Origin: an uncultured Candidatus Saccharibacteria bacterium
Lineage (GTDB): Bacteria > Patescibacteriota > Minisyncoccia > Phycocordibacterales > Zambryskibacteraceae
Assembly: GCA_964608585.1 (NCBI GenBank)
Contig: CAZSOL010000002.1
Span: 11 to 64,010, forward strand
Direction: 5' to 3'
DNA length: 64,000 nucleotides
In this document: piece after piece, positions 1-63,257 of the stretch
Position numbering within the stretch: position 1 is the stretch's first letter
Layout of the letters: each line of letters starts with the position of its first letter
The notes under the pieces: generated by a model
The model's input: only the letters and a program-made list of their open reading frames with translations
Databases searched by the model: none
Told to the model about the DNA's origin: nothing
Program-made: the position numbers and the translations under genes

Positions 1-908
<908 letters not shown>

Positions 909-1941: not shown

Positions 1942-3882
1942 TTACGGCATTGTAACCGAAGAGGTTCTCCACTCGGTAAGACCTGAGGAGAATGTAGATG
2001 CAGCAAGTCCGTTAGAACCTACCCAGTTGAACTGCTCAAGACCGACTGCGTAGATGCCGCTTGTGATAAGCGCAGCTGCAGTAGTCCTACCCTCGAAGCG
2101 GAAGGCTACAGGAATCTCAACAGAGCTACCCTCGTTAAGAGTGATAGTGTTTGAGCTTATAGTGTAACCGCTTGGAGCTGTGATGTCTGTTGTAGAAGCA
2201 CCACCAGTTGAAGCTGCTGAACCGTTAGCGTAAACGATGAACGAAGGTGCATCTGATGAATCAGTACCACCGTTGGTTACGAACGGAGTTGTAGAACCGT
2301 TCATACCAAGCAAGATGTTGCTACCCTTTGCCTCTACACGAACCCTGAAGGTTGCAGTAGCGGAAGAAGTAGAAATGTTGTTTTGCTCAGTACCAGCAGC
2401 GTAGGTAATGGTTGGAGTACCAACTAGTGAGAACGTAGCACCAACGTTCCTTACAAGAAGGTTGTTGGCTGCTGCGGAACCAGTGATGGTATCTACCGCA
2501 TCACCCTCGCTATTCTCACCAACCAAGTTTGTTGTGTTTGCAGTCCACGAAGCATCGATGGTTGTCTGAGTAGCGTTAGCTGCACGAATGTCGGCAGCAA
2601 GGGTGAAGGTTCTTGTAGCACCGGCTGGGATGACATAGCTGATGTTCTCAAAGTCAGCATCGCTGTCTGAGAGAGCGTCAGTGCCAAGGATCTGACCGCT
2701 AGTACCGTTACCTGCGTAGAGGTAAGTAGTAGAAGCAGTAGCAGCACCAGCAGAACGGCTAACTACGAAGTTGATCATGTCTGTGATCTCGATATCATCC
2801 TTCTCGGCCTTGATGTCGAAGACCATAAGCACAACCTTGTCTGCCTCATCCTCGTTAGAACCAGAAGCAGCGACTAACTCACGGTTTTGTGGGTTAGAGT
2901 TGTTGCTTGTAGAAACAATGAGCGATGCGCTCTCTGACAATGAAGCAGAGAAGCTCAAAGTCTTTGTAACTGTGGTGTCGTCAGCAGGTGAGTAAAGGTC
3001 GATACCAACACCGTCAATACCGCGAACGCCGTTGTCGGCGAGAGCGATAGTACCACCCTCGGTGATATCAGCAGACTCTATTGAGCTCTCGATATCAGCC
3101 TTGATGTAGTAAACGCGTGTGGTGTCCTTAGCTACAACTGAGCTAAAGCCAGTCATAGTAAGCTCGTACTCGTTTGAGCCGTTTCTAACAACAGTAGTGT
3201 TGTTAAGCTCAGCTGAAGCAAGAGTTCTACCAGCATCATCTACAAGGTAAACCTTTGTAAGAAGGTCTCTGTAGAGAGTGGAGTCTGTACCAAGATCAAG
3301 CTTGACGCGCTGTAGAGCGATGTCAGAAAGATCTGCCTCTGCCTTGAAGGAAAGAACTTCCTTCATCTCTTGACCCTCGTAAAGGGTTGAGACTGAAACA
3401 GGAGCGTTGGTAACAGTAAGGGTACCCTCAGCACCAGGAGTAGTTATAACTCCAGGAACTGCTGGGGTGGTAACGCCACCAGGGGTGGTAGTAACTGTAC
3501 CAGCAAACTTAGACCTAGAAATAGGTCCGAAGTAACCAGTAGCAGGAACACCGTTAGCAGCTTGCCACTTAGCAACTGCGGCCTTTGTTAGAGAGCCGAA
3601 GTAACCAGGAGCAACACCTGCAGGAATGGTCAAGTAGCCTTGAGCTACAAGAGAGTTCTGAAGTGCGACAACTTGAGCACCAGTAGAACCGACTGTTAGG
3701 TCAGAAGTGATGGTTGCAGAAGCTGAAGTGCCTGCAGTAAGAGCTTGAAGCTGTGCCATAAGCGCAGCAATTTGTGCCTGAAGCTCAGCAATAGTCTGTG
3801 CGCCGACAGGAGCGAAAACGCCCAAAGTCATTGCAGCTGCTGCTGAGAAGCCAGCAAATCGTGCGATTGTGATTCTTTTCAT
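1942..3882 (-). CDS. secreted Ser/Thr-rich surface protein with putative peptidoglycan-binding (PGBD-like) domain
   Basis: N-terminal signal peptide; coiled-coil segment; LVAQGYLT...GYFGSLTKAAVAKWQAANG motif typical of PG_binding_1; long beta-rich S/T/G region. Confidence 0.6.
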   Translation of the reverse strand: MKRITIARFAGFSAAAAMTLGVFAPVGAQTIAELQAQIAALMAQLQALTAGTSASATITSDLTVGSTGAQVVALQNSLVAQGYLTIPAGVAPGYFGSLTKAAVAKWQAANGVPATGYFGPISRSKFAGTVTTTPGGVTTPAVPGVITTPGAEGTLTVTNAPVSVSTLYEGQEMKEVLSFKAEADLSDIALQRVKLDLGTDSTLYRDLLTKVYLVDDAGRTLASAELNNTTVVRNGSNEYELTMTGFSSVVAKDTTRVYYIKADIESSIESADITEGGTIALADNGVRGIDGVGIDLYSPADDTTVTKTLSFSASLSESASLIVSTSNNSNPQNRELVAASGSNEDEADKVVLMVFDIKAEKDDIEITDMINFVVSRSAGAATASTTYLYAGNGTSGQILGTDALSDSDADFENISYVIPAGATRTFTLAADIRAANATQTTIDASWTANTTNLVGENSEGDAVDTITGSAAANNLLVRNVGATFSLVGTPTITYAAGTEQNNISTSSATATFRVRVEAKGSNILLGMNGSTTPFVTNGGTDSSDAPSFIVYANGSAASTGGASTTDITAPSGYTISSNTITLNEGSSVEIPVAFRFEGRTTAAALITSGIYAVGLEQFNWVGSNGLAASTFSSGLTEWRTSSVTMP

Positions 3883-8377: not shown

Positions 8378-8953
8378 ATGCTTGAATACAACGAAATAAC
8401 AGAACGCAAATACATCGTGTTTGAAGGCGAGCCTTACGAGGTCCTCTCCTCTCACGTCTTCCGCAAACAACAGAGGAAGCCAGTAAACGCTACTAAGATG
8501 CGCAACATGCTTACAGGGCGCATCGTAGAGCACTCCTTCCACGTATCAGACAAAGCAGAAGAGGCAGATATATCTAAAAGAGAAGTGAAGTACTTGTACA
8601 CGAACAAGGGAGAGTACTGGTTCTCTGACCCAACTAACCCATCAAAGCGCTTTGAGCTACCAGTAGAACTCATCGGTAACGCAGGTAAGTTCCTCAAAGA
8701 AAATATAGTTGTAGACGCCCTTATATATGATGACGGATCCGAAGACGGTAAGACCATAGGCCTCAAACTCCCTATCAAAATGGAGTTGAAGGTCACCGAA
8801 GCTCATCCTGCCGTAAAGGGTAATACAGCCCAAGGAGGCACCAAGGCTGTAGTGCTTGAGACAGGAGCTGAGATACAAGTACCTATGTTTATAAACGAGG
8901 GAGATGTGGTGCGGGTTAACACTGAGACAGGTCAATACACCGAACGAGTCTAA
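8378..8953 (+). CDS. efp: elongation factor P
   Basis: Three-domain EF-P pattern (KGEYWF..., GGTKAVVLETGAEIQVPMFI). Confidence 0.9.
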   Translation: MLEYNEITERKYIVFEGEPYEVLSSHVFRKQQRKPVNATKMRNMLTGRIVEHSFHVSDKAEEADISKREVKYLYTNKGEYWFSDPTNPSKRFELPVELIGNAGKFLKENIVVDALIYDDGSEDGKTIGLKLPIKMELKVTEAHPAVKGNTAQGGTKAVVLETGAEIQVPMFINEGDVVRVNTETGQYTERV

Positions 8954-34277: not shown

Positions 34278-34604
34278 TCACTTCACCTTTGTACCAACTG
34301 GTATCTCTTCCCCAACTTTTAGAAGTGAGAAGGCTGTATCGGTAGATACTGCCAAGATCATTGCCTCGGAGGTCATGCCCATGAGAGGTCTTGGCTCAAG
34401 ATTTGTAACGAAGGGGCACCTTACACCAACTAAACTTTGTGGGTCGGAGAAATACTTCTTGATGCCCGAGAGGACTGTGCGAGATCGCTCCTCACCAAAG
34501 TCCACAGTGAGCTTTAGTAACTTATCGCTCCCCTCTACGTCTTCTACAACCTTTATCTCCCCTACGGTTATCTCTGTCTTCTTGAAGTCGTCAATATTTA
34601 TCAT
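34278..34604 (-). CDS. free-standing tRNA-binding domain protein (CsaA/Trbp111-like)
   Basis: OB-fold tRNA-binding domain pattern like MetRS C-terminal domain. Confidence 0.7.
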   Translation of the reverse strand: MINIDDFKKTEITVGEIKVVEDVEGSDKLLKLTVDFGEERSRTVLSGIKKYFSDPQSLVGVRCPFVTNLEPRPLMGMTSEAMILAVSTDTAFSLLKVGEEIPVGTKVK

Positions 34605-36789: not shown

Positions 36790-38053
36790 TCTTTTAACCA
36801 CAATTAAGAAATTCATACCCAAGAGCCTCTTTGAGGCTCTTGCCCCCTTGTATCACTACTCGCTGGCTCTAGTTGGGGCTCTTATCTTCGGCTTCCCATC
36901 AAAGAAGCTTGTGGTTATCGCAGTAACTGGCACCAAAGGCAAGAGCTCTACCACCGAGATGATCAACTCCATCTTTGAGGAAGCTGGGCACAAAACCCTA
37001 CTTCTAAACACGATCCGCTTTAAGATTGGTGGAGAGTCTATGCCAAACAGAAGGAAGATGACTGTCCCAGGGCGCTTCTTCCTCCAAAAGATGTTGCGTA
37101 AGGCCGAGATGGCAGGGTGCAACGTAGCAATAATTGAGCTCTCAAGCGAGGCAGCTAAGCAGTATAGGCATAAGTTCGTCTATCTTGATGCTTTGGTCTT
37201 CACCAACCTTCATCCTGAGCACATAGAGAGTCATGGCTCGTTTGAGAATTATAAGAAGTCCAAACTCTCTCTAACCGAAAGCCTGAGAATGAGTAATGGT
37301 AAGAGGAGTATCGTTGTGGCAAACATAGATGACTTGGCTGGGACAGACTTCCTAAACTGCGGTGCTCGTAGAGCTCTACCCTACTCCCTCAAAGATGCTG
37401 GGATTTATAAACTTGAGGAGAGTGGAGTAACCTTCAACTTTAAGGGTCTAGAGATAAGGTCCAAACTCCTTGGACGCTTCAATCTTGAGAACATGCTGGC
37501 TGCCGCCACTCTAGCCAACGCCTTTGATATACCTACCGAGACAATCAAGAAGGGCTTGGAGAGTCTGTCTGTCATTAAGGGTCGGGTGGAGTTTGTAAGG
37601 ATAAGCGAGAAGCAGGAGTTTGATGTCGTGGTGGACTATGCACACACAGCGGAGTCTCTACAAGAGTTGTACAAAGCATTTGATGGCAAGAGGAAAATCT
37701 GCGTGCTAGGCAATACTGGTGGAGGGAGAGACAAGTGGAAGAGGCCTGAGATGGCTAAGATCGCTGACCAGTTTTGTGACGAAGTGATACTAACAAACGA
37801 AGACCCCTATGATGAGAACCCAGAGCAAATAATCTCCGACATGCTCCCAGGGTTTAAAAAGATTATGCCCAAAGTGATTATGGATAGACGTGAGGCCATA
37901 CACAGTGCACTGAAGTTTGCTAAAAAGGGTGATGCTGTGCTCATCACCGGCAAAGGCACAGACCCATACATAATGCTCGCCAACAACAAGAAGCTAGTGT
38001 GGTCAGACTTTGAAGTAGCTAAAGAGGGACTCCAGAAAATTTTGAAAAAATAA
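36779..38053 (+). CDS. murE: Mur ligase family, MurE-like (UDP-MurNAc-tripeptide synthetase)
   Basis: P-loop VTGTKGKSST, Mur ligase middle and C-terminal domains, NEDPYDENP (DNPR-like) motif. Confidence 0.7.
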   Translation: MLDSLLTTIKKFIPKSLFEALAPLYHYSLALVGALIFGFPSKKLVVIAVTGTKGKSSTTEMINSIFEEAGHKTLLLNTIRFKIGGESMPNRRKMTVPGRFFLQKMLRKAEMAGCNVAIIELSSEAAKQYRHKFVYLDALVFTNLHPEHIESHGSFENYKKSKLSLTESLRMSNGKRSIVVANIDDLAGTDFLNCGARRALPYSLKDAGIYKLEESGVTFNFKGLEIRSKLLGRFNLENMLAAATLANAFDIPTETIKKGLESLSVIKGRVEFVRISEKQEFDVVVDYAHTAESLQELYKAFDGKRKICVLGNTGGGRDKWKRPEMAKIADQFCDEVILTNEDPYDENPEQIISDMLPGFKKIMPKVIMDRREAIHSALKFAKKGDAVLITGKGTDPYIMLANNKKLVWSDFEVAKEGLQKILKK

Positions 38054-38086
38054 AATAAAACAGCCCCGAGCGCATGCGCTCGGGGC
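38047..38086 (-). terminator. GC-palindrome terminator (gccccgagcgc-atgc-gcgctcggggc)
   Basis: Perfect 24-nt palindrome; minus-strand T-rich run (plus aaaataaaataaaaca) follows; sequence family shared with 28641-28664. Confidence 0.65.
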
Positions 38087-38100
38087 TTGGACCTTCTTCA

Positions 38101-38565
38101 TCACATCCAGTTGTGAGTGTTGCCGAAAGGATCAGGTGGGTTCTTCTGGACCTCCACACCGAGCTCATCGAGGAACTCCATGAAGTTGTTCCACAGAGTC
38201 TTGAGGGCTCTACCGAGAGTCCATTTCATCTTCGGGGGCTCCTCCTTGGTGAAGAGGCTCTCCTTGAAGATGTGGATCATCTGCCCAACCATGGCCGACT
38301 CGATTGAGATGGGGCCCGTCTCCGAGCTGTCGTACGTATCAACGGAGTCCATCCTGACATCAATCCTCTCATCCGGATGAGCTGTGCCAAGACCGAGATT
38401 GATGTTCTCGGTATGGGCGAGAGCTTGGTAGATTTGGTCATAGATCTCCTTCGCTCTCACAGCGTGACCCAAGTGACCCTTGTCCAAGGGACCGACGATG
38501 AAGTACTTCTTGAGCTCTCCTTGAAAGTAGAGCTCAATCCGCTTGTAGGGCTTGAAGTTGCCCAT
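38101..38565 (-). CDS. hypothetical protein, GC-rich (about 54%), strong SD (GGGAGGT)
   Basis: 154-aa ORF with SD 5 nt upstream of ATG, unlike native genes; no recognisable domain. Confidence 0.5.
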   Translation of the reverse strand: MGNFKPYKRIELYFQGELKKYFIVGPLDKGHLGHAVRAKEIYDQIYQALAHTENINLGLGTAHPDERIDVRMDSVDTYDSSETGPISIESAMVGQMIHIFKESLFTKEEPPKMKWTLGRALKTLWNNFMEFLDELGVEVQKNPPDPFGNTHNWM

Positions 38566-38732
38566 AAATACCTCCCGGATAGGTTGTAGAGTGCGTTGTC
38601 TACCCTTAATAATACCACATTAGATTCCAAAAAGTCAAGTTTGGACAACCATTGACTACTGAAGCTTATTTATGTCAATATAAAAAAAGACATAAGCCGT
38701 GCATTAAGTTGCACACAAAGGAGGTGAGTAAG

Positions 38733-38933
38733 ATGAGCAAGCCGCACACGGACTTCAATCTTCAACCGTCTCAGGTGCCCTTCATGGACGAAGTCGCTAG
38801 GACTATTGTCCAGCAGCCTGATTACACGGGTATCGGTGGCCACGGCCTCGAGACACACGGTCCCCACGGACCACACACCCAGACCAACATCGGTCTCGAC
38901 GGAACAACAATCAACATCCGCAAGCCTGGCTGA
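38733..38933 (+). CDS. small His/Gly-rich protein (66 aa) with consensus SD AAGGAGGTG
   Basis: In-frame ATG 6 nt after AAGGAGGTG (38718-38726); followed directly by strong terminator. Confidence 0.5.
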   Translation: MSKPHTDFNLQPSQVPFMDEVARTIVQQPDYTGIGGHGLETHGPHGPHTQTNIGLDGTTINIRKPG

Positions 38934-38941
38934 TCAACCCA

Positions 38942-38978
38942 CACCACACGCAACACATCGCGTGTGGTGGTTTTTTAT
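38942..38978 (+). terminator. rho-independent terminator (caccacacgc stem + T6)
   Basis: 10-bp stem caccacacgc/gcgtgtggtg, 8-nt loop, TTTTTT; a second acacacac/gtgtgtgt hairpin at 38984-39008 serves the convergent minus-strand gene. Confidence 0.8.
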
Positions 38979-39015
38979 AAAAAACACACACTTTTTGGGT
39001 GTGTGTTTTAATTCC

Positions 39016-39258
39016 TTAGGGGGGAATCTCCCCAGAAACATACTTCCTTAGGTATTCATCCCGATCCTTCCCCCACTGTTCGGCTCTTGCATCTGCTTCA
39101 GCATCACGAATGCGGTCTGCCTCGCGAAGCTTTTCGATTTCCTCATCAGAAGGACCGTTGAGGTAGTCGACATTTGGATCAATAAATGGTTGGGACAGGC
39201 CGATGCCTATGTAACCATTATTATGATCCGGTCTTCCTGAAGACTCGTTTTCGACCAT
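39016..39258 (-). CDS. hypothetical small acidic protein (80 aa), GC-rich, SD GGAGGA
   Basis: ORF with GGAGGATAAAATG context; convergent terminator hairpin downstream. Confidence 0.45.
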   Translation of the reverse strand: MVENESSGRPDHNNGYIGIGLSQPFIDPNVDYLNGPSDEEIEKLREADRIRDAEADARAEQWGKDRDEYLRKYVSGEIPP

Positions 39259-39269
39259 TTTATCCTCCG

Positions 39270-39443
39270 CTATCCACGGCGTTTGAGTTTATCGATGAAA
39301 TCGTCTCGATCTCTGCTCGAAGGACTGCTTGGTGGCAACCCCCTCCTTGGATCAGGAGGATCAGCGAACGTGGTGCGAGGCGGAGTCAAGGGGGGCTCTT
39401 TGCCCCCGCCTCCTGTATCCGTTTGTGGCTTTGAAGCGGTCAT
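39270..39443 (-). CDS. hypothetical Pro-rich small protein (57 aa; below ORF-track cutoff), SD AGGAGGA
   Basis: Manual translation MTASKPQTDTGGGGKEPPLTPPRTTFADPPDPRRGLPPSSPSSRDRDDFIDKLKRRG preceded by AAGAGGAGGAAAG. Confidence 0.35.
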   Translation of the reverse strand: MTASKPQTDTGGGGKEPPLTPPRTTFADPPDPRRGLPPSSPSSRDRDDFIDKLKRRG

Positions 39444-39536
39444 CTTTCCTCCTCTTGTGTAAAAAGAGCGAATCGTATTCCAAATTCAAACTATCTTTAA
39501 ATAGCACTAATGTCAATTAAACTATAGTATATCGAC

Positions 39537-40394
39537 ATGCCAGAACTCCCTGAGGTACAAACAACGGTTAATGGGCTAAATGCCAAAGCACGCGGAAGAA
39601 AGATCGTAAGCGTTTGGACCGACTACAAGAGCAAGCTCCCTATGCACAAAGACTCTATCAAGGAAGAGAGGTTCTTTAGAGAATTTAAGAAAAAGGTTGT
39701 TGGAAAGAAAATTTTGAAAGCCGAAAGACGGGCCAAAAATATTTTGATCCACCTCACAGGTGGGCACACCATACTCGTGCATATGAAGATGACTGGGCAC
39801 TTCGTCTACGATAGATCGGAGTACCCGCACATCCGCTTCTCCCTCACTTTGGACAATGGCAAAGTCTTAGCACTCTCCGATATGAGGCGCTTCGCTAAAG
39901 TAACACTTATAGAGACAGATAAACTCCATGAGTCTAAACACTTGGAAGACATTGGCCCAGAACCGCTTGAGCCCAGCTTCAAGCTTCAAGCCTTTAGCTT
40001 CCAGCTTATTAAAAAGCCAAATGGGAAGATCAAAACCGTTCTTATGGATCCGTCTGTAGTCGCAGGTATTGGTAACATCTACTCAGACGAAATACTCTGG
40101 CGAGCTGATGTGCACCCAGAGTCTAGAGTCTCCAAAATCCCCCAAGCAAATATCTCCAAAATGTTTAAGGCAATGAAGGAGGTCTTGAGGAAGGGTATAG
40201 ACTTCGGTGGAGACTCAATGAGCGATTACAGGAACATAGATGGCGAGCGGGGCGACTTCCAAAACCATCACAAAGCTTATAGAAAAACAGGAGGAAAGTG
40301 TGAGAAAAGCGGGTGTAAAGGCTCTATAGAGCGCCTTATAGTCGGTGGTCGCTCTGCCCATTTTTGTAACAAACACCAGGTAAGATATAATTGA
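39537..40394 (+). CDS. mutM: formamidopyrimidine-DNA glycosylase (Fpg/MutM)
   Basis: N-terminal MPELPEV catalytic Pro2/Glu3, H2TH, C-terminal zinc finger C..C..C..C. Confidence 0.9.
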   Translation: MPELPEVQTTVNGLNAKARGRKIVSVWTDYKSKLPMHKDSIKEERFFREFKKKVVGKKILKAERRAKNILIHLTGGHTILVHMKMTGHFVYDRSEYPHIRFSLTLDNGKVLALSDMRRFAKVTLIETDKLHESKHLEDIGPEPLEPSFKLQAFSFQLIKKPNGKIKTVLMDPSVVAGIGNIYSDEILWRADVHPESRVSKIPQANISKMFKAMKEVLRKGIDFGGDSMSDYRNIDGERGDFQNHHKAYRKTGGKCEKSGCKGSIERLIVGGRSAHFCNKHQVRYN

Positions 40395-40411
40395 GAGGTA
40401 ACAACAAATAT

Positions 40412-40717
40412 ATGAAATCAATACTTATCGCCACATTATTCCTCATCCCTGTAGCCGGCTTTGCTGTCGGTACCGATACAACCGTCTACCCTACCAAGGA
40501 CAAGACCACCACTACCACGTACGACAAGACAAAGACCACCACAACCTACGATAAGGCTAAGACCACTACTACTTATGACAAGACTAAGTACACAGGAGAG
40601 GTGATGACCGAGGCAGTGCGTCAGCAAGAGATGATCAAACTTCAAAATCTTATTGCTCAACTTCTTCAACAACTTATTGCCCTCTTACAAGCTCAGCAAA
40701 AGACTCTAACTCAATAG
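40412..40717 (+). CDS. small secreted protein with Thr-rich tandem repeats (TTTTYDK[TA]K x3) and C-terminal Leu/Gln coiled coil (start at MKSIL)
   Basis: Signal peptide MKSILIATLFLIPVAGFA, 3 tandem 27-33 nt repeats, amphipathic LQ-rich tail. Confidence 0.55.
   Translation: MKSILIATLFLIPVAGFAVGTDTTVYPTKDKTTTTTYDKTKTTTTYDKAKTTTTYDKTKYTGEVMTEAVRQQEMIKLQNLIAQLLQQLIALLQAQQKTLTQ
40502..40588 (+). repeat. three imperfect tandem 27-33-nt coding repeats
   Basis: aagaccaccactaccacgtacgacaagacaaag / accaccacaacctacgataaggctaag / accactactacttatgacaagactaag. Confidence 0.8.
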
Positions 40718-45801: not shown

Positions 45802-46170
45802 TCACCGGTCAGGACAACCCCCCGGAAGCCATTGGACAGGCCACGAGTAGTTGTTCTGCGGAGCGGTCGGACCGTTGCCCGACGAAACACTCACGTTATA
45901 CTCGAGCGAACCCAGGGGCTCGTCGTTGTCGAGCCGGAAGCCGGTCGCCACGATAACGAAGCGGTTGTAGCTTGCGCTCGTACCAGTGAGAGAGACATTG
46001 ACCTGCTCACCAGGCATGAGACGTTCGCTGACCACATCATAGTTGCCAGTACCTGCGAGACGACTGATGCGAAGGTAGGCACCTGGGCAGTCGTTCGTCA
46101 CGAGGACGTGGGCCTGCGGATAGCAGGCGGTCATGAGAAGAAGTGAGAAGAGCAAGACCACGAAGCGCAT
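45802..46170 (-). CDS. small lipoprotein (lipobox LLMTAC), GC-rich (about 58%) orphan
   Basis: Signal peptide with L-M-T-A-C lipobox; compositionally foreign; own terminator. Confidence 0.55.
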   Translation of the reverse strand: MRFVVLLFSLLLMTACYPQAHVLVTNDCPGAYLRISRLAGTGNYDVVSERLMPGEQVNVSLTGTSASYNRFVIVATGFRLDNDEPLGSLEYNVSVSSGNGPTAPQNNYSWPVQWLPGGCPDR

Positions 46171-61424: not shown

Positions 61425-63257
61425 TTATCTTGTGACCTCTCGGGTTTCTTCTAACTCTCTTTTTGCCTTCTTTTGAGCCAAGACTTGTGATGGGTCTGAG
61501 GTGATGATCTGGTCCTCGGTGTAAGAGGCAATGATCTTGATAGCTACGTGCTTAAGCCCAGCGAAGAAGATCCCCTCCCCCACATCCGACTCAAGGAGCA
61601 AGAACTTCTCTTCATCTGTCAGGTTGAAGGTTTTCTGCAGGTTATCTATGTTTGTTGGAGACTGCTTAAGTAAGACTTGGATAGAAGAGTTAGTGATGAT
61701 CGGTAGACCGTATGGAGACTTGAGGAAGTCGCCCACGTCTTGAGTGATGGTAGCCACACCCAAGTAATACTTCCTCCCTCTCTTAACCAACCCTGTTAGG
61801 AAGGAAGCCGTGTCGTCTGACTTCATCATCCACCACGCCTCGTCTATGACGAGTAACCTCTTCTTCAGCTCTCTCCTTACCGCGTTCCAGATAAAGTGAG
61901 TGACGATGTACATCGCCACAGGCTTGAGCTCATCCTCCATGTCACGGAGAGAGAAGACCACCAACTTCTTGTTGATGTCTACATTTGTTGGTCTGTTGAT
62001 GAAGCCTGCCCAAGTACCCTTGGTGTACTTAGTAAGCCTTTGAGCCAAGGACTCGCCTCCCTCAAGACCTGAGAGCACTAGCTCAAAGTCGGACATTAGA
62101 GGAGGCTCAACGTTTCTAAAGTCGGAGTCAGCTGTGATGTCTTTAAGTGCATATGTCTCGGTGATAGCTCGGTCTATAAGCGCGTCCTCTTCTGCGGTGA
62201 GTCCTCCCATCATAATACGGAAGAGCCCTACAAGGTTGATGATGTTACTCCTCAAGATATTGGCAGCTGACTCATCAGGACCTGGGACCGGTAGGTCAAA
62301 GGGGTTTATATGGTGCTCGGAGTTGAGAGAGACGTTGAAGTATCTACCCCCTACTGCCTCAGCCATGTACTCGTACTCTCGCTCTGGGTCTATGATGATG
62401 ACCTCAGTATCAAACATTAGGGTTCTTAGGATTTCAAGCTTGGTGCAGTAAGACTTACCAGCACCTGACTTGGCGAAGATGACGGAGTTGTAGTTCTCAA
62501 GTGAGAAGCGGTCAAAGAGTACAAGGGATGAGTTGTGTCTGTTGATGCCGTAGAGTATCCCTTTGTCGGAGGTGAGGTCAAATGAGGTGAATGGGAAGAG
62601 GGATGAGAGTGGTGAGGAGTTAAGCTTGGAGTGTACACCCAAGAGATCGTCGCCCAAGGGTAGAGTAGACTTGTAACCCTGCTCTTGCTGGAAGAGTGCT
62701 GGCTTAACATACACGAGCTTAGCCTCAAGGATGGACTTGATCTCATTTTCTATCTTGTCCAGCTCAAGGTTAGAGTCGGCGTAGATAGTGATGTAGAGGC
62801 CAACATCAAAGAGCTTCTCTTGAGCTTGTTGTAGCTGGTCGCGGAGGTTCTCAAGATCTTGATAAGCCACATCAAGCACTGGGTCTCTGACTAAACCCTT
62901 CTCCTCTCTGGTGTGTATCTGGCTCTCCACCTCAGCCACCTTCTTTTGGAATTGCCTTAGTATTTTGGATGTCTCTATCGGATGAACAAAGATAGACACA
63001 TCAAAAACTTTATCCATATTAAGTATCGGAGAGAACCACTCTTCCGAAAGGAAGCGCGGATAAGAAATGATGAAGAAGCTACGCAAGATTTTTTCTCCGA
63101 GGTCCAACTCTCTGGGGGTAATCTTTAGCGCCGAAGGAGCTATAAGGTCCTTGAGCTCCAGCACTCCTGCTTCAAAGACTTCTTGAGGCAGGATAGACTG
63201 TATCCTTTGCTCAACCTTCTCCTCTTTTTTACCGATGATTTTGTCGAAGAAGCTCAT
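61425..63257 (-). CDS. virB4: VirB4/TrbE-family T4SS ATPase (ATPase portion)
   Basis: Walker A FAKSGAGKSY, Walker B LLVIDEAWWMM, DUF87/AAA-like domain. Confidence 0.8.
   Translation of the reverse strand: MSFFDKIIGKKEEKVEQRIQSILPQEVFEAGVLELKDLIAPSALKITPRELDLGEKILRSFFIISYPRFLSEEWFSPILNMDKVFDVSIFVHPIETSKILRQFQKKVAEVESQIHTREEKGLVRDPVLDVAYQDLENLRDQLQQAQEKLFDVGLYITIYADSNLELDKIENEIKSILEAKLVYVKPALFQQEQGYKSTLPLGDDLLGVHSKLNSSPLSSLFPFTSFDLTSDKGILYGINRHNSSLVLFDRFSLENYNSVIFAKSGAGKSYCTKLEILRTLMFDTEVIIIDPEREYEYMAEAVGGRYFNVSLNSEHHINPFDLPVPGPDESAANILRSNIINLVGLFRIMMGGLTAEEDALIDRAITETYALKDITADSDFRNVEPPLMSDFELVLSGLEGGESLAQRLTKYTKGTWAGFINRPTNVDINKKLVVFSLRDMEDELKPVAMYIVTHFIWNAVRRELKKRLLVIDEAWWMMKSDDTASFLTGLVKRGRKYYLGVATITQDVGDFLKSPYGLPIITNSSIQVLLKQSPTNIDNLQKTFNLTDEEKFLLLESDVGEGIFFAGLKHVAIKIIASYTEDQIITSDPSQVLAQKKAKRELEETREVTR

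What the first reader, a model, noticed from the sequence alone, without database searches (positions are those of the whole stretch)
38047..39445. GC-rich cassette of four tiny SD-driven ORFs with convergent strong terminators inserted between murE and fpg
Between murE (ends 38053) and fpg (starts 39537) lies a 1.4-kb block of about 54-58% GC encoding four small proteins of unknown function: 154 aa minus-strand, 66 aa plus-strand, and 80 aa and 57 aa minus-strand. Each is preceded by a strong Shine-Dalgarno (GGGAGGT, AAGGAGGTG, GGAGGA, AGGAGGA), whereas native genes in the window essentially lack SDs. The block is bounded or punctuated by perfect GC hairpin terminators (38063-38086; 38942-38978; 38984-39008). 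The 66-aa product is His/Gly-rich (GGHGLETHGPHGPH) and the 57-aa product is Pro-rich. The block looks like an acquired accessory module from a higher-GC donor; the function is unknown.
Basis: seen in the sequence. Interest (0 to 1): 0.6.

Follow-up and report, generated by a model that had tools for sequence, protein, structure and literature searches.

The report
Shuffled small-protein islet in Paceibacteria
Between two housekeeping genes of an uncultured ultra-small (Paceibacteria/CPR) bacterium sits a 1.5-kb islet of four small genes of unknown function, each wired for strong expression in a way the rest of the genome is not, and related strains swap different versions of these genes in and out of the same slots.

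Summary
The four ORFs, their Shine-Dalgarno (SD) sites and three hairpin terminators are present as described. All four SDs are stronger than those of the 64 other ORFs of at least 100 aa in the window. The GC claim is only partly right: the block is 49.6% GC, and only orf154 and orf66 have unusual third-position GC.

The block is an insertion: many sister Paceibacteria have murE and fpg 2-40 bp apart. It is not a recent acquisition by this genome. A monophyletic clade carries the same four-slot islet at this junction:
- A: 137-162 aa
- B: 60-75 aa, with a near-invariant leader
- D: Pro-rich, 48-57 aa
- C: 80 or 145 aa, coupled to D

A, B and D are under purifying selection (dN/dS 0.02-0.25). 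orf80 has no homolog among 5.8 billion proteins.

Same-species strains (MurE 98-99% identical) carry unrelated alleles in slots A, B and C, joined by conserved linkers. No family, fold, phage or plasmid match was found.

Best reading: a clade-specific islet of three self-contained, phage-moron-like expression units whose alleles are exchanged by recombination. I infer a role in phage or host interaction; this was not shown.

The parts
38062..38087 (-). Terminator T1: perfect 11-bp GC hairpin followed by UUUUAUUUU on the minus strand. It ends the orf154 transcript and probably also insulates murE.
   Evidence: -23.7 kcal/mol, z -5.0. Hairpins of different sequence occupy the same position in L003, L004, L008 and L010.
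38101..38565 (-). Slot A gene (orf154, 154 aa): soluble protein with a ferredoxin-like beta-beta-alpha-beta-alpha N-terminal domain and a C-terminal helix and tail (...NTHNWM). Founder of a very small new family.
38570..38576 (-). SD of orf154 (GGGAGGT), 4 nt before the ATG.
   Evidence: -11.7 kcal/mol. The L003 homolog has AGGAGGAG before a GTG start.
38609..38638 (-). orf154 promoter: TTGACT, 18-nt spacer with TG, TATTAT (10 of 12 matches, extended -10).
   Evidence: Only promoter-like hit in 37900-39700. Both hexamers are invariant in the six-genome alignment and present in L003.
38697..38732 (+). Near-invariant leader of slot B: CCGTGCATTAAGTTGCACACAAAGGAGGTGAGTAAG. It holds the palindrome GTGCA-N6-TGCAC (38699-38714) and the SD AAGGAGGTGA (38718-38727).
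   Evidence: invariant columns across six genomes; only exact copy of the palindrome in the window; -16.1 kcal/mol. The hairpin itself is not unusually stable (z -0.7), so an operator is as likely as an RNA stem-loop.
38733..38933 (+). Slot B gene (orf66, allele B66): Gly/Pro/Thr/His-rich 66-aa hydrophilic protein.
   Evidence: 86-91% identical in L008, L089 and L093, where MurE is only about 70-72% identical. dN/dS 0.05-0.08. GC3 0.67. Unrelated alleles B75 and B60 occupy the slot elsewhere.
38942..38976 (+). Terminator T2 for orf66: 10-bp stem followed by U6.
   Evidence: -20 kcal/mol, z -4.9. Equivalent hairpins with different sequence in L004, L008 and L010.
38981..39009 (-). Terminator T3 for the orf57-orf80 operon: 11-bp stem with A/U runs on both sides.
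   Evidence: -12.8 kcal/mol, z -3.75; inverted repeat I11.
39016..39258 (-). Slot C gene (orf80): acidic (pI 4.4), very hydrophilic 80-aa protein with no homolog anywhere. Its SD GGAGGA (39263-39268) lies 1 nt after the orf57 stop codon.
   Evidence: No homolog among 5.8 billion proteins. No significant similarity to the other slot-C alleles. Coding status rests only on position, SD, coupling to orf57 and the terminator.
39270..39443 (-). Slot D gene (orf57): basic (pI 10), Pro-rich 57-aa protein with motif F-x-DPPDPRR. First gene of the D-C operon. SD AGAGGAGGAA at 39447-39456.
   Evidence: The 48-aa homologs in six or more relatives have dN/dS 0.02-0.11 with dS 0.3-0.65. Gene callers behind the public collections did not call it.
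39488..39516 (-). Putative promoter of the D-C operon: TTGACA, 17 nt, TAGTTT. Read by eye; it fails the scan tool's -10 criterion.
   Evidence: Sequence. A TAGTTTG element is also present at the equivalent place in L008. Inference only.
39523..39536 (+). TATAGT 8 nt upstream of the fpg ATG: a leaderless-type start that the islet's right edge gives to fpg, which is otherwise uncoupled from murE.
   Evidence: About 56% of native genes in relatives have TANNNT within 18 nt of the start. Inference.

Best explanation
The block is one version of a clade-specific accessory islet that entered the formerly tight murE|fpg junction in an ancestor of this Paceibacteria lineage.

It consists of three self-contained expression units:
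- A alone.
- B alone.
- The D-C bicistron.

Each unit has its own promoter and a strong SD. This stands out in a genome whose own genes are mostly SD-less or leaderless. Each unit also ends in an intrinsic terminator, which insulates it from murE, from fpg and from the other units.

Slots A, B and C hold alternative, mutually unrelated alleles. These are exchanged within and between species by homologous recombination. The recombination anchors are the flanking genes and the conserved linkers: the A-B promoter region with the B leader, and D with its promoter.

The products are small, soluble, mostly hydrophilic proteins made at high level. They appear to act independently of one another.

From the allele turnover, I infer that they work in an antagonistic or partner-specific interaction, with phage or with the host cell of this likely episymbiont, rather than in housekeeping.

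Shown: anatomy, insertion, clade distribution, purifying selection and allele swapping. Inferred: high expression, independence of the units and the interaction role.
For: Insertion and age:
- murE and fpg are 2-40 bp apart in many sister genomes.
- Islet carriers form one clade in a MurE neighbour-joining tree.

Shared design:
- The same four-slot layout, SDs of -8 kcal/mol or stronger and raised GC (0.51-0.53 against 0.43-0.47 for the locus) are seen in L004, L008, L010 and L093. The layout recurs in L084 and L089, and partially in L095.
- The A promoter hexamers and the 32-nt B leader are near-invariant.
- Terminators are kept in position with different sequences.

Real genes: dN/dS is 0.05-0.08 for B66, 0.04-0.07 for C145, 0.02-0.11 for D, 0.18-0.25 for A and 0.15 for C80'.

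Allele swapping within a species:
- L008 and L084 have MurE 98% identical (dS 0.06), yet A is 49% identical, B is B66 versus B75, and C is C145 versus C80'.
- L010 and L089 have MurE 99% and A 98.7% identical, yet B is B60 versus B66 and C is C80' versus C145.
- A sliding-window comparison shows sharp identity drops in the slots and 96-97% identity in the linkers.

No fixed allele partnerships: B66 occurs with four A types and two C types.

Synonymous divergence of shared alleles is 0.3-0.9, lower than in the flanks (above 1.3 or saturated).
Against: - No function is demonstrated. There are no hits in Pfam, PHROGs, NCBIfam or PADLOC, and no fold match for A.
- There are no expression data, and the lineage's anti-SD sequence is unverified.
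- The lower dS of the modules could reflect codon-usage selection rather than recent transfer.
- The MurE tree is a simple neighbour-joining tree of one gene.
- L007, outside the clade, has a distant A homolog. The history is therefore not a clean single gain.
- orf80 has no comparative support at all.
- The family is tiny and most contigs are short, so the allele census is small (about 10 distinct islets).
Confidence: 0.55

Rival explanations
1. One reading: a module recently acquired by this genome from a higher-GC donor, whose foreign GC and SD signals have not yet been ameliorated.
For: - orf154 and orf66 have GC3 of 0.74 and 0.67 against a host value of 0.49.
- The strong SDs are unlike those of host genes.
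- The junction is tight in sister lineages.
- Some related Paceibacteria have 51-56% GC and could be donors.
Against: - The islet is present at the same site across a clade whose MurE synonymous sites are saturated.
- The L003 homolog is only 53% identical, although the flanks are 83% identical at the nucleotide level.
- The unusual signals are kept in every allele, so they are maintained rather than decaying.
- orf80 and orf57 have host-like GC3.
- No donor sequence was found.
Confidence: 0.1
2. Native, vertically inherited, very highly expressed genes. High GC3 and SD reflect selection for expression, and the diversity between relatives is rapid divergence in place without horizontal exchange.
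For: - Islet carriers are monophyletic.
- The codon bias of A and B (C- and G-ending codons enriched, A-ending depleted) runs in the same direction as in L11, L19 and nusG, only stronger.
- All alleles are under purifying selection.
Against: - Strains with 98-99% identical MurE carry unalignable alleles, with sharp identity breakpoints at conserved linkers.
- L087 has a window-like fpg (83.5% identical) but an A allele of the other subfamily.
- B66 is 91% identical between genomes whose MurE is 72% identical.
- Ribosomal-protein genes here do not use strong SDs.
Confidence: 0.1
3. Functional rival: the products are abundant stress protectants (hydrophilin or LEA-like disordered proteins, perhaps metal-binding His-rich peptides) for desiccation, osmotic stress or dormancy, not conflict factors.
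For: - orf80 and orf57 are extremely hydrophilic (GRAVY -1.1 to -1.6) with Gly above 8%.
- B alleles are Gly/Pro/Thr/His-rich with GH...PH motifs.
- The expression signals are strong.
Against: - Unrelated alleles replacing each other within a species is not expected for general stress protectants.
- A has a folded domain, and C145 is a TPR/PPR-like solenoid.
- There is no match to known stress-protein families.
Confidence: 0.15
4. Remnant of a prophage or other mobile element: morons left behind after the rest of the element was deleted.
For: - The promoter-gene-terminator units with deviant composition, inserted between genes that are adjacent in relatives, fit the moron description (PMC4378225).
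- The junction also holds unrelated inserts in L013, L016, L003 and L087.
Against: - No phage-family hits.
- No match in 50,697 phage records, 72,556 plasmids or IMG/VR.
- No integrase, att sites or flanking direct repeats.
- The flanks are housekeeping genes in conserved synteny.
Confidence: 0.07
5. A toxin-antitoxin or toxin-immunity pair, or pairs (A/B or D/C).
For: - Small genes at a variable locus, and D-C is a tightly coupled bicistron.
Against: - Alleles of A, B and C assort independently, so there are no cognate pairs.
- A and B are divergent separate transcripts.
- D stays constant while C is swapped.
- No hits in PADLOC, Pfam or NCBIfam.
Confidence: 0.03

Closest known systems
Phage morons (Hendrix/Juhala concept; as described in PMC4378225)
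   Same: Single coding regions with their own promoter and terminator. They are inserted between two genes that are adjacent in related genomes, and their nucleotide composition differs from the neighbours. No recombinase target is recognisable.
   Different: - The islet sits in a bacterial chromosome between housekeeping genes, not in a phage or prophage.
- Three such units are packed together.
- The units are kept for a long time across a clade, and their slots are refilled with alternative alleles.
Replacement islands: hypervariable loci flanked by conserved genes, such as capsule or O-antigen loci (comparison from general knowledge, not tested here)
   Same: Fixed chromosomal site, conserved flanks used for homologous recombination, unrelated alleles in the same species, and alleles shared across species.
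   Different: - Only 1.5 kb, encoding four tiny cytoplasmic-looking proteins rather than surface-polysaccharide enzymes.
- Recombination also happens at internal conserved linkers, so single slots are swapped.
Integron gene cassettes
   Same: Small, often orphan genes in an array at one site, with cassette-wise turnover.
   Different: - No integrase and no attC or attI sites.
- Each unit has its own promoter and terminator, and the units lie in mixed orientations.
Polyproline, EF-P-dependent or proline-sensing leader ORFs, such as the proline-rich mgtP leader of Salmonella mgtCBR (from memory; a lead only)
   Same: orf57/D is 19-35% proline with PPP, PPG and DPP runs. It lies directly upstream of the variable gene C, and its stop codon is 1 nt from (window) or inside (relatives) C's SD. 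EF-P is encoded in the window.
   Different: At 48-57 aa, D is much longer than known leader peptides. It is conserved along its whole length at the amino-acid level (dN/dS 0.02-0.11), which suggests a functional protein. No attenuator structure was found.
SD-led exceptions in SD-poor genomes, such as rpsU in Bacteroidia (from memory; a lead only)
   Same: A handful of genes keep strong SDs in a genome that otherwise does not use them, which implies special translational treatment.
   Different: Here the exceptions are accessory orphan genes in one islet, not a ribosomal-protein autoregulatory circuit. The state of the ribosome's anti-SD in Paceibacteria is unknown.

Membership tests
Phage moron | Coding region flanked by its own promoter and factor-independent terminator | tested here: met
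   A has TTGACT-18-TATTAT plus terminator T1. B has a conserved leader plus T2. D-C has a putative promoter plus T3. Only the promoter of A passes the scan; the others are inferred.
Phage moron | Inserted between two genes that are adjacent in related genomes | tested here: met
   The murE-fpg gap is 2-40 bp in L005, L006, L009, L011, L014, L015, L030, L035, L040 and others.
Phage moron | Nucleotide composition differs from adjacent genes | tested here: inconclusive
   Met for A and B (GC3 0.67-0.85). Not met for C and D, whose GC3 of 0.44-0.59 is host-like.
Phage moron | Resides in a phage or prophage genome | tested here: not met
   Flanks are ruvA, murE, fpg and spoU in conserved synteny. 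No PHROG hits and no phage or IMG/VR matches.
Integron cassette array | attC recombination sites at cassette ends and an adjacent intI integrase | tested here: not met
   The only strong inverted repeats are the three terminators. No repeated element is shared between units. The neighbours are housekeeping genes. No dedicated attC model was run.
Type II toxin-antitoxin or toxin-immunity pair | Co-transcribed cognate pair whose alleles co-vary; recognisable toxin or antitoxin domains | tested here: not met
   Alleles in slots A, B and C assort independently, and D is constant with different C alleles. No domain hits in Pfam, NCBIfam or PADLOC.
Intrinsic (Rho-independent) terminators | GC-rich hairpin followed by a U-tract, more stable than shuffled sequence | tested here: met
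   T1 z -5.0 (plus strand; -4.1 on its minus, functional strand), T2 z -4.9, T3 z -3.75, each with a U-run on the functional strand. Termination itself was not measured.
Shine-Dalgarno-led initiation | A purine-rich motif 4-10 nt upstream of the start, complementary to the 16S 3' tail of the same organism | tested here: inconclusive
   Motif and spacing are met, and conserved across relatives. The organism's own anti-SD could not be read, because no 16S is available.
Hydrophilins (criteria recalled from Garay-Arroyo et al. 2000: Gly above 6% and high hydrophilicity) | Gly above 6% and strongly negative hydropathy | tested here: met
   orf80 has GRAVY -1.14 and Gly 8.8%. orf57 has GRAVY -1.40 and Gly 10.5%. 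This is a compositional class only and says nothing about function.
TPR/PPR-like alpha-solenoid (slot-C allele C145, not present in the window) | Stacked helix-turn-helix repeats | tested here: inconclusive

The most novel reading that the evidence does not exclude
The islet is a natural plug-and-play expression platform. Conserved linkers carry the promoters, a perfect SD, an operator-like palindrome and an EF-P-dependent polyproline leader gene. They hold open three payload slots that the population refills with unrelated small proteins. Because these are virtually the only SD-led mRNAs in a leaderless or SD-less CPR genome, they form a separate translational class that the cell can switch on or off as a block, for example on host attachment, phage attack or dormancy.
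Probability: 0.15. Interest if true: 0.75.

Novelty: new variant of a known kind. Interest (0 to 1): 0.5.

Why it matters
CPR/Patescibacteria genomes are small, streamlined and full of genes without known function. Little is known about how they vary between strains or how they interact with hosts and phages.

This locus is a compact and clearly delimited example of strain-level gene turnover in Paceibacteria. Its breakpoints can be mapped, and it involves four new small-protein families.

It also shows two translation-initiation styles side by side in one genome: leaderless or SD-less for native genes, and very strong SD for the islet. That makes it a handle for asking whether CPR ribosomes use the anti-SD selectively.

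If the products mediate phage or host interactions, they would be new small effectors. The fixed murE|fpg site makes the locus easy to track in metagenomic time series.

Tried and rejected
Searches that found nothing:
- Pfam, PHROGs, NCBIfam and PADLOC on all four proteins and on alleles from relatives.
- Rfam on the block, permissive (two sub-threshold hits at the murE-proximal hairpin, E 0.5-0.7, dismissed as chance), and on the whole window at gathering score, which found nothing in the block.
- PDB sequence search with the A profile and with C145: E 0.1 or worse.
- Phage and plasmid BLAST of the block and of A.
- IMG/VR scans with A, B66, C145 and the B-leader pattern.
- The D scan of IMG/VR gave one low-complexity tail match, which I regard as chance.
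- JGI metagenome scans found no B leader and only one extra A locus.

Ideas considered and dropped:
- att sites or a target-site duplication. There are no flanking repeats. The 14-nt repeat AGAAAATTTTGAAA lies inside murE and inside fpg, not at the borders.
- A stable 5' hairpin in the B leader. The fold is not better than shuffled sequence (z -0.7).
- Homology between alternative alleles in slots B and C. Not significant in shuffling tests (p 0.03-0.79).
- P0012, a 2120-aa protein that hit the A profile. It is a coiled-coil/CBM protein and the hit is spurious.
- Paralogs of the modules elsewhere in the window. None found.


Full report
**1. What is in the sequence**

- orf154: 38101-38565, minus strand.
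- orf66: 38733-38933, plus strand.
- orf80: 39016-39258, minus strand.
- orf57: 39270-39443, minus strand.

The neighbours are confirmed. MurE matches TIGR01085 at 328 bits (cut-off 257). Fpg matches TIGR00577 at 242 bits (cut-off 203).

Each ORF has a purine-rich motif at SD distance. I scored the 17 nt upstream of each start against CACCUCCUUU. The four ORFs give -11.7, -16.1, -9.5 and -11.9 kcal/mol. The other 64 non-overlapping ORFs of at least 100 aa in the window average about -2.2, and the strongest is -8.3. All four islet genes therefore rank below every other gene; my own arithmetic gives an exact rank probability of 1/C(68,4) = 1.2e-6.

Many native genes instead carry a TATAAT-like hexamer a few bases before the start codon, which is typical of leaderless mRNAs. 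Independent gene calls in two relatives show the same picture:
- Native genes have mean -2.1 to -2.2 kcal/mol, and about 56% have TANNNT within 18 nt of the start.
- Islet genes score -8.6 to -15.5.

SD-like motifs before internal start codons are common by chance in this window. The argument therefore rests on the annotated starts and on conservation across genomes, not on the motif alone.

The three hairpins are real and far more stable than shuffled sequence (z -3.75 to -5.0). Each has a U-run on the strand of the gene it follows.

The GC statement is only partly right:
- The block is 49.6% GC against 45.7% for the window.
- Only orf154 (GC3 0.74) and orf66 (GC3 0.67) have unusual third positions.
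- orf80 and orf57 are host-like at third positions.
- orf57 is GC-rich because it is rich in Pro and Gly.

**2. The organism and the junction**

The window carries typical CPR gene content, and its closest public relatives are labelled Parcubacteria or Paceibacteria MAGs. One carrier contig comes from a wastewater metagenome.

The order ruvA-murE-fpg-spoU is widely conserved. In many related species murE and fpg are 2-40 bp apart (L005, L006, L009, L011, L014, L015, L030, L035, L040, L057, L075 and others). The block is therefore an insertion relative to that state.

Other lineages have different inserts at the same junction:
- L013 and L016 carry unrelated ORFs.
- L031, L036, L047, L054, L056 and L071 carry a 263-356-aa gene.

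**3. The islet is shared by a clade, not private to this genome**

A contig with about 83% nucleotide identity in the flanks (L003, GCA_013565675.1) has a 53%-identical homolog of orf154 at the same place and in the same orientation. It has the same TTGACT-18-TATTAT promoter, an AGGAGGAG SD before a GTG start, GC3 of 0.78 and a hairpin terminator. It lacks the other three genes and has an extra 215-aa ORF.

Six further loci carry a four-slot islet of the same design, and L095 a partial one (L004, L008, L010/L091, L084-86, L089, L093):
- Slot A: convergent with murE, 137-162 aa.
- Slot B: divergent from A, 60-75 aa.
- Slot C: convergent with B, 80 or 145 aa.
- Slot D: directly upstream of C, Pro-rich, 48-57 aa.

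In every carrier measured the islet is richer in GC than its locus (0.51-0.53 against 0.43-0.47), and every gene has an SD of -8 kcal/mol or stronger.

In a neighbour-joining tree of MurE the carriers form one clade. The genomes with an adjacent murE|fpg lie outside it. L007, outside the clade, has a distant A homolog (P0013), so the history is not a perfectly clean single gain.

**4. Are they genes?**

Nei-Gojobori estimates on pairs of relatives are as follows:

| Slot and allele | dN/dS |
|---|---|
| B66 | 0.05-0.08 |
| C145 | 0.04-0.07 |
| D (48 aa) | 0.02-0.11, with dS 0.3-0.65 |
| C80' | 0.15 |
| B75 | 0.27 |
| A (moderately diverged pairs) | 0.18-0.25 |

A, B and D are therefore protein-coding and constrained. 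D was not called as a gene in the public collections.

orf80 is different. A search of 5.8 billion proteins returns only itself. It shows no significant similarity to the other slot-C alleles. Its coding status rests on its slot position, its SD placed 1 nt after the stop of orf57, and the terminator.

**5. Allele swapping**

This is the most informative result. Two same-species pairs differ sharply inside the islet:

| Pair | MurE identity (murE dS) | Slot A | Slot B | Slot C |
|---|---|---|---|---|
| L008 / L084 | 98% (0.06) | 49% identical | B66 vs B75 | C145 vs C80' |
| L010 / L089 | 99% (0.01) | 98.7% identical | B60 vs B66 | C80' vs C145 |

A sliding-window comparison of L008 and L084 runs as follows:
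- 100% identity through murE.
- 26-67% in A.
- Back to 96-97% in the A-B promoter region.
- 33-42% in B and 13-50% in C.
- 77-97% in D.
- 77-91% in the first part of fpg, then 96-100%.

Across genomes, alleles combine freely. B66 occurs with four A types and with both C80 (the window) and C145. B75 occurs with C145 and with C80'. L087 has a window-like fpg (83.5% identical) but an A allele of the other subfamily, plus different companion ORFs.

Shared alleles have lower synonymous divergence than the flanks in the same genome pairs. For example, between the window and L008 the pS of B66 is 0.51, against 0.76 for murE. This fits exchange between species. Selection on codon usage could also contribute.

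The conserved pieces are the A promoter, a 32-nt B leader that is almost invariant across genomes whose murE synonymous sites are saturated, D, and the D/fpg promoter region. They are the obvious recombination anchors.

No att sites, direct repeats, integrase or transposase are present.

**6. What the proteins look like**

- **B.** The alleles are Gly/Pro/Thr/His-rich and hydrophilic. B66 and B75 share only a faint GH...PH motif (p about 0.05).
- **D.** It is basic (pI 10) and 19-35% proline, with PPP, PPG and DPP runs and a conserved DPPDPRR motif. An EF-P gene lies in the window at 8378-8953.

None of the proteins has a signal peptide or hydrophobic segment that I could see. The exception is the C-terminus of the L007 A homolog.

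There are no hits in Pfam, PHROGs, NCBIfam, PADLOC or Rfam. There are also no matches in phage, plasmid or IMG/VR collections.

**7. How it most likely works**

Shown:
- Three transcription units separated by intrinsic terminators.
- A near-consensus extended -10 promoter for A.
- Very strong SDs.
- Strong avoidance of A-ending codons in A and B. This is the same direction as in the L11, L19 and nusG genes, but stronger.
- Purifying selection within alleles.
- Slot-wise allele replacement.

Inferred:
- The units are built for high, autonomous expression.
- The palindrome GTGCA-N6-TGCAC between the B promoter and its SD is an operator or a 5' stem. Its fold is not unusually stable.
- D and C are translationally coupled, and translation of D may depend on EF-P.
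- The products act independently, because there are no cognate allele pairs.
- The turnover reflects selection in an interaction with phage or with the host cell.

The functional part is a weak inference. A stress-protectant role is the main alternative.

**8. Comparison with known systems**

The units work like phage morons: a promoter, a gene and a terminator, inserted between genes that are adjacent in relatives, often with deviant composition (definition in PMC4378225). They are not in a phage, so they are not members of that class in the strict sense.

The locus as a whole behaves like a miniature replacement island. It is not an integron array and not a toxin-antitoxin pair.

Searches of the held literature found no description of this locus or of SD usage in Patescibacteria. 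These searches are not exhaustive.

**9. Verdict**

It is a new variant of a known kind of genome feature and encodes four new small-protein families. The contrast in translation signals with the rest of the genome is unusual. Interest is moderate (0.5).

Noticed in passing
window, whole (e.g. starts at 34604, 39537, 49653 region, 63898): Most native genes lack an SD and have a TATAAT-like hexamer 6-12 nt before the start codon, which suggests mainly leaderless mRNAs. In relatives L003 and L093, about 56% of called genes have TANNNT within 18 nt upstream.
   Followed up: partly
window 1-901 (-): The 5' 859 positions of a 23S rRNA gene run off the window start. No 16S gene lies upstream of it within the window, so the rRNA genes appear unlinked. 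The anti-SD sequence could not be read.
   Followed up: no
L089 about 2690-3115 (reverse orientation; columns 140-512 of alignment A4): One carrier has an extra AT-rich insert of about 370 bp, between the A promoter and the B leader of the islet. The other five genomes lack it.
   Followed up: no
L003 10477-11124 (-): The closest relative has a 215-aa AT-rich ORF, with no family match, between murE and the orf154 homolog. It lacks slots B, C and D entirely.
   Followed up: partly
L087 850-2260: A contig with a window-like fpg (83.5% identical) carries an 86-aa SD-led ORF and a 366-aa ORF in place of slots B, C and D, next to an A allele of the other subfamily. The 366-aa ORF has a 44%-identical homolog between fpg and spoU in L014.
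   Followed up: partly
window 38034-38047 and 39706-39719: Exact 14-nt direct repeat AGAAAATTTTGAAA, in the last codons of murE and about 170 nt into fpg. It is not at the insertion borders. It is probably chance or reflects similar KILK peptide coding.
   Followed up: partly
window 40391-40717 (+): A 108-aa ORF overlaps the fpg stop. It has a signal-peptide-like N-terminus and Thr-rich repeats (TTTYDK, three copies). It is 72% identical in L003 and has a weak sub-threshold hit to the Pfam 'New_glue' family.
   Followed up: no
window 45802-46170 (-): A 122-aa ORF of high GC (0.59) with a lipoprotein-like N-terminus (LLLMTAC) and a TGGTATAAT promoter upstream. It has no family match and is conserved in L003.
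   Followed up: no
window 61425-63257 (-): A TraG/VirB4-like P-loop ATPase (PF19044), which suggests type IV secretion or conjugation-like machinery near the window end.
   Followed up: no
L096 5001-5066 (IMG/VR contig IMGVR_UViG_3300046000_009272): The N-terminal 22 residues of the 48-aa D protein match (73%) the Pro-rich C-terminal tail of a 157-aa phage protein with an N-terminal transmembrane segment, in a high-GC phage contig. The match is low-complexity and probably chance.
   Followed up: partly
L031, L036, L047, L054, L056, L071 (murE-fpg gaps): More distant Paceibacteria have a single 263-356-aa gene between murE and fpg. By eye, several of these share motifs such as HxNDYPG, but they were not compared with each other or with any family. 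They are unrelated to the islet.
   Followed up: no
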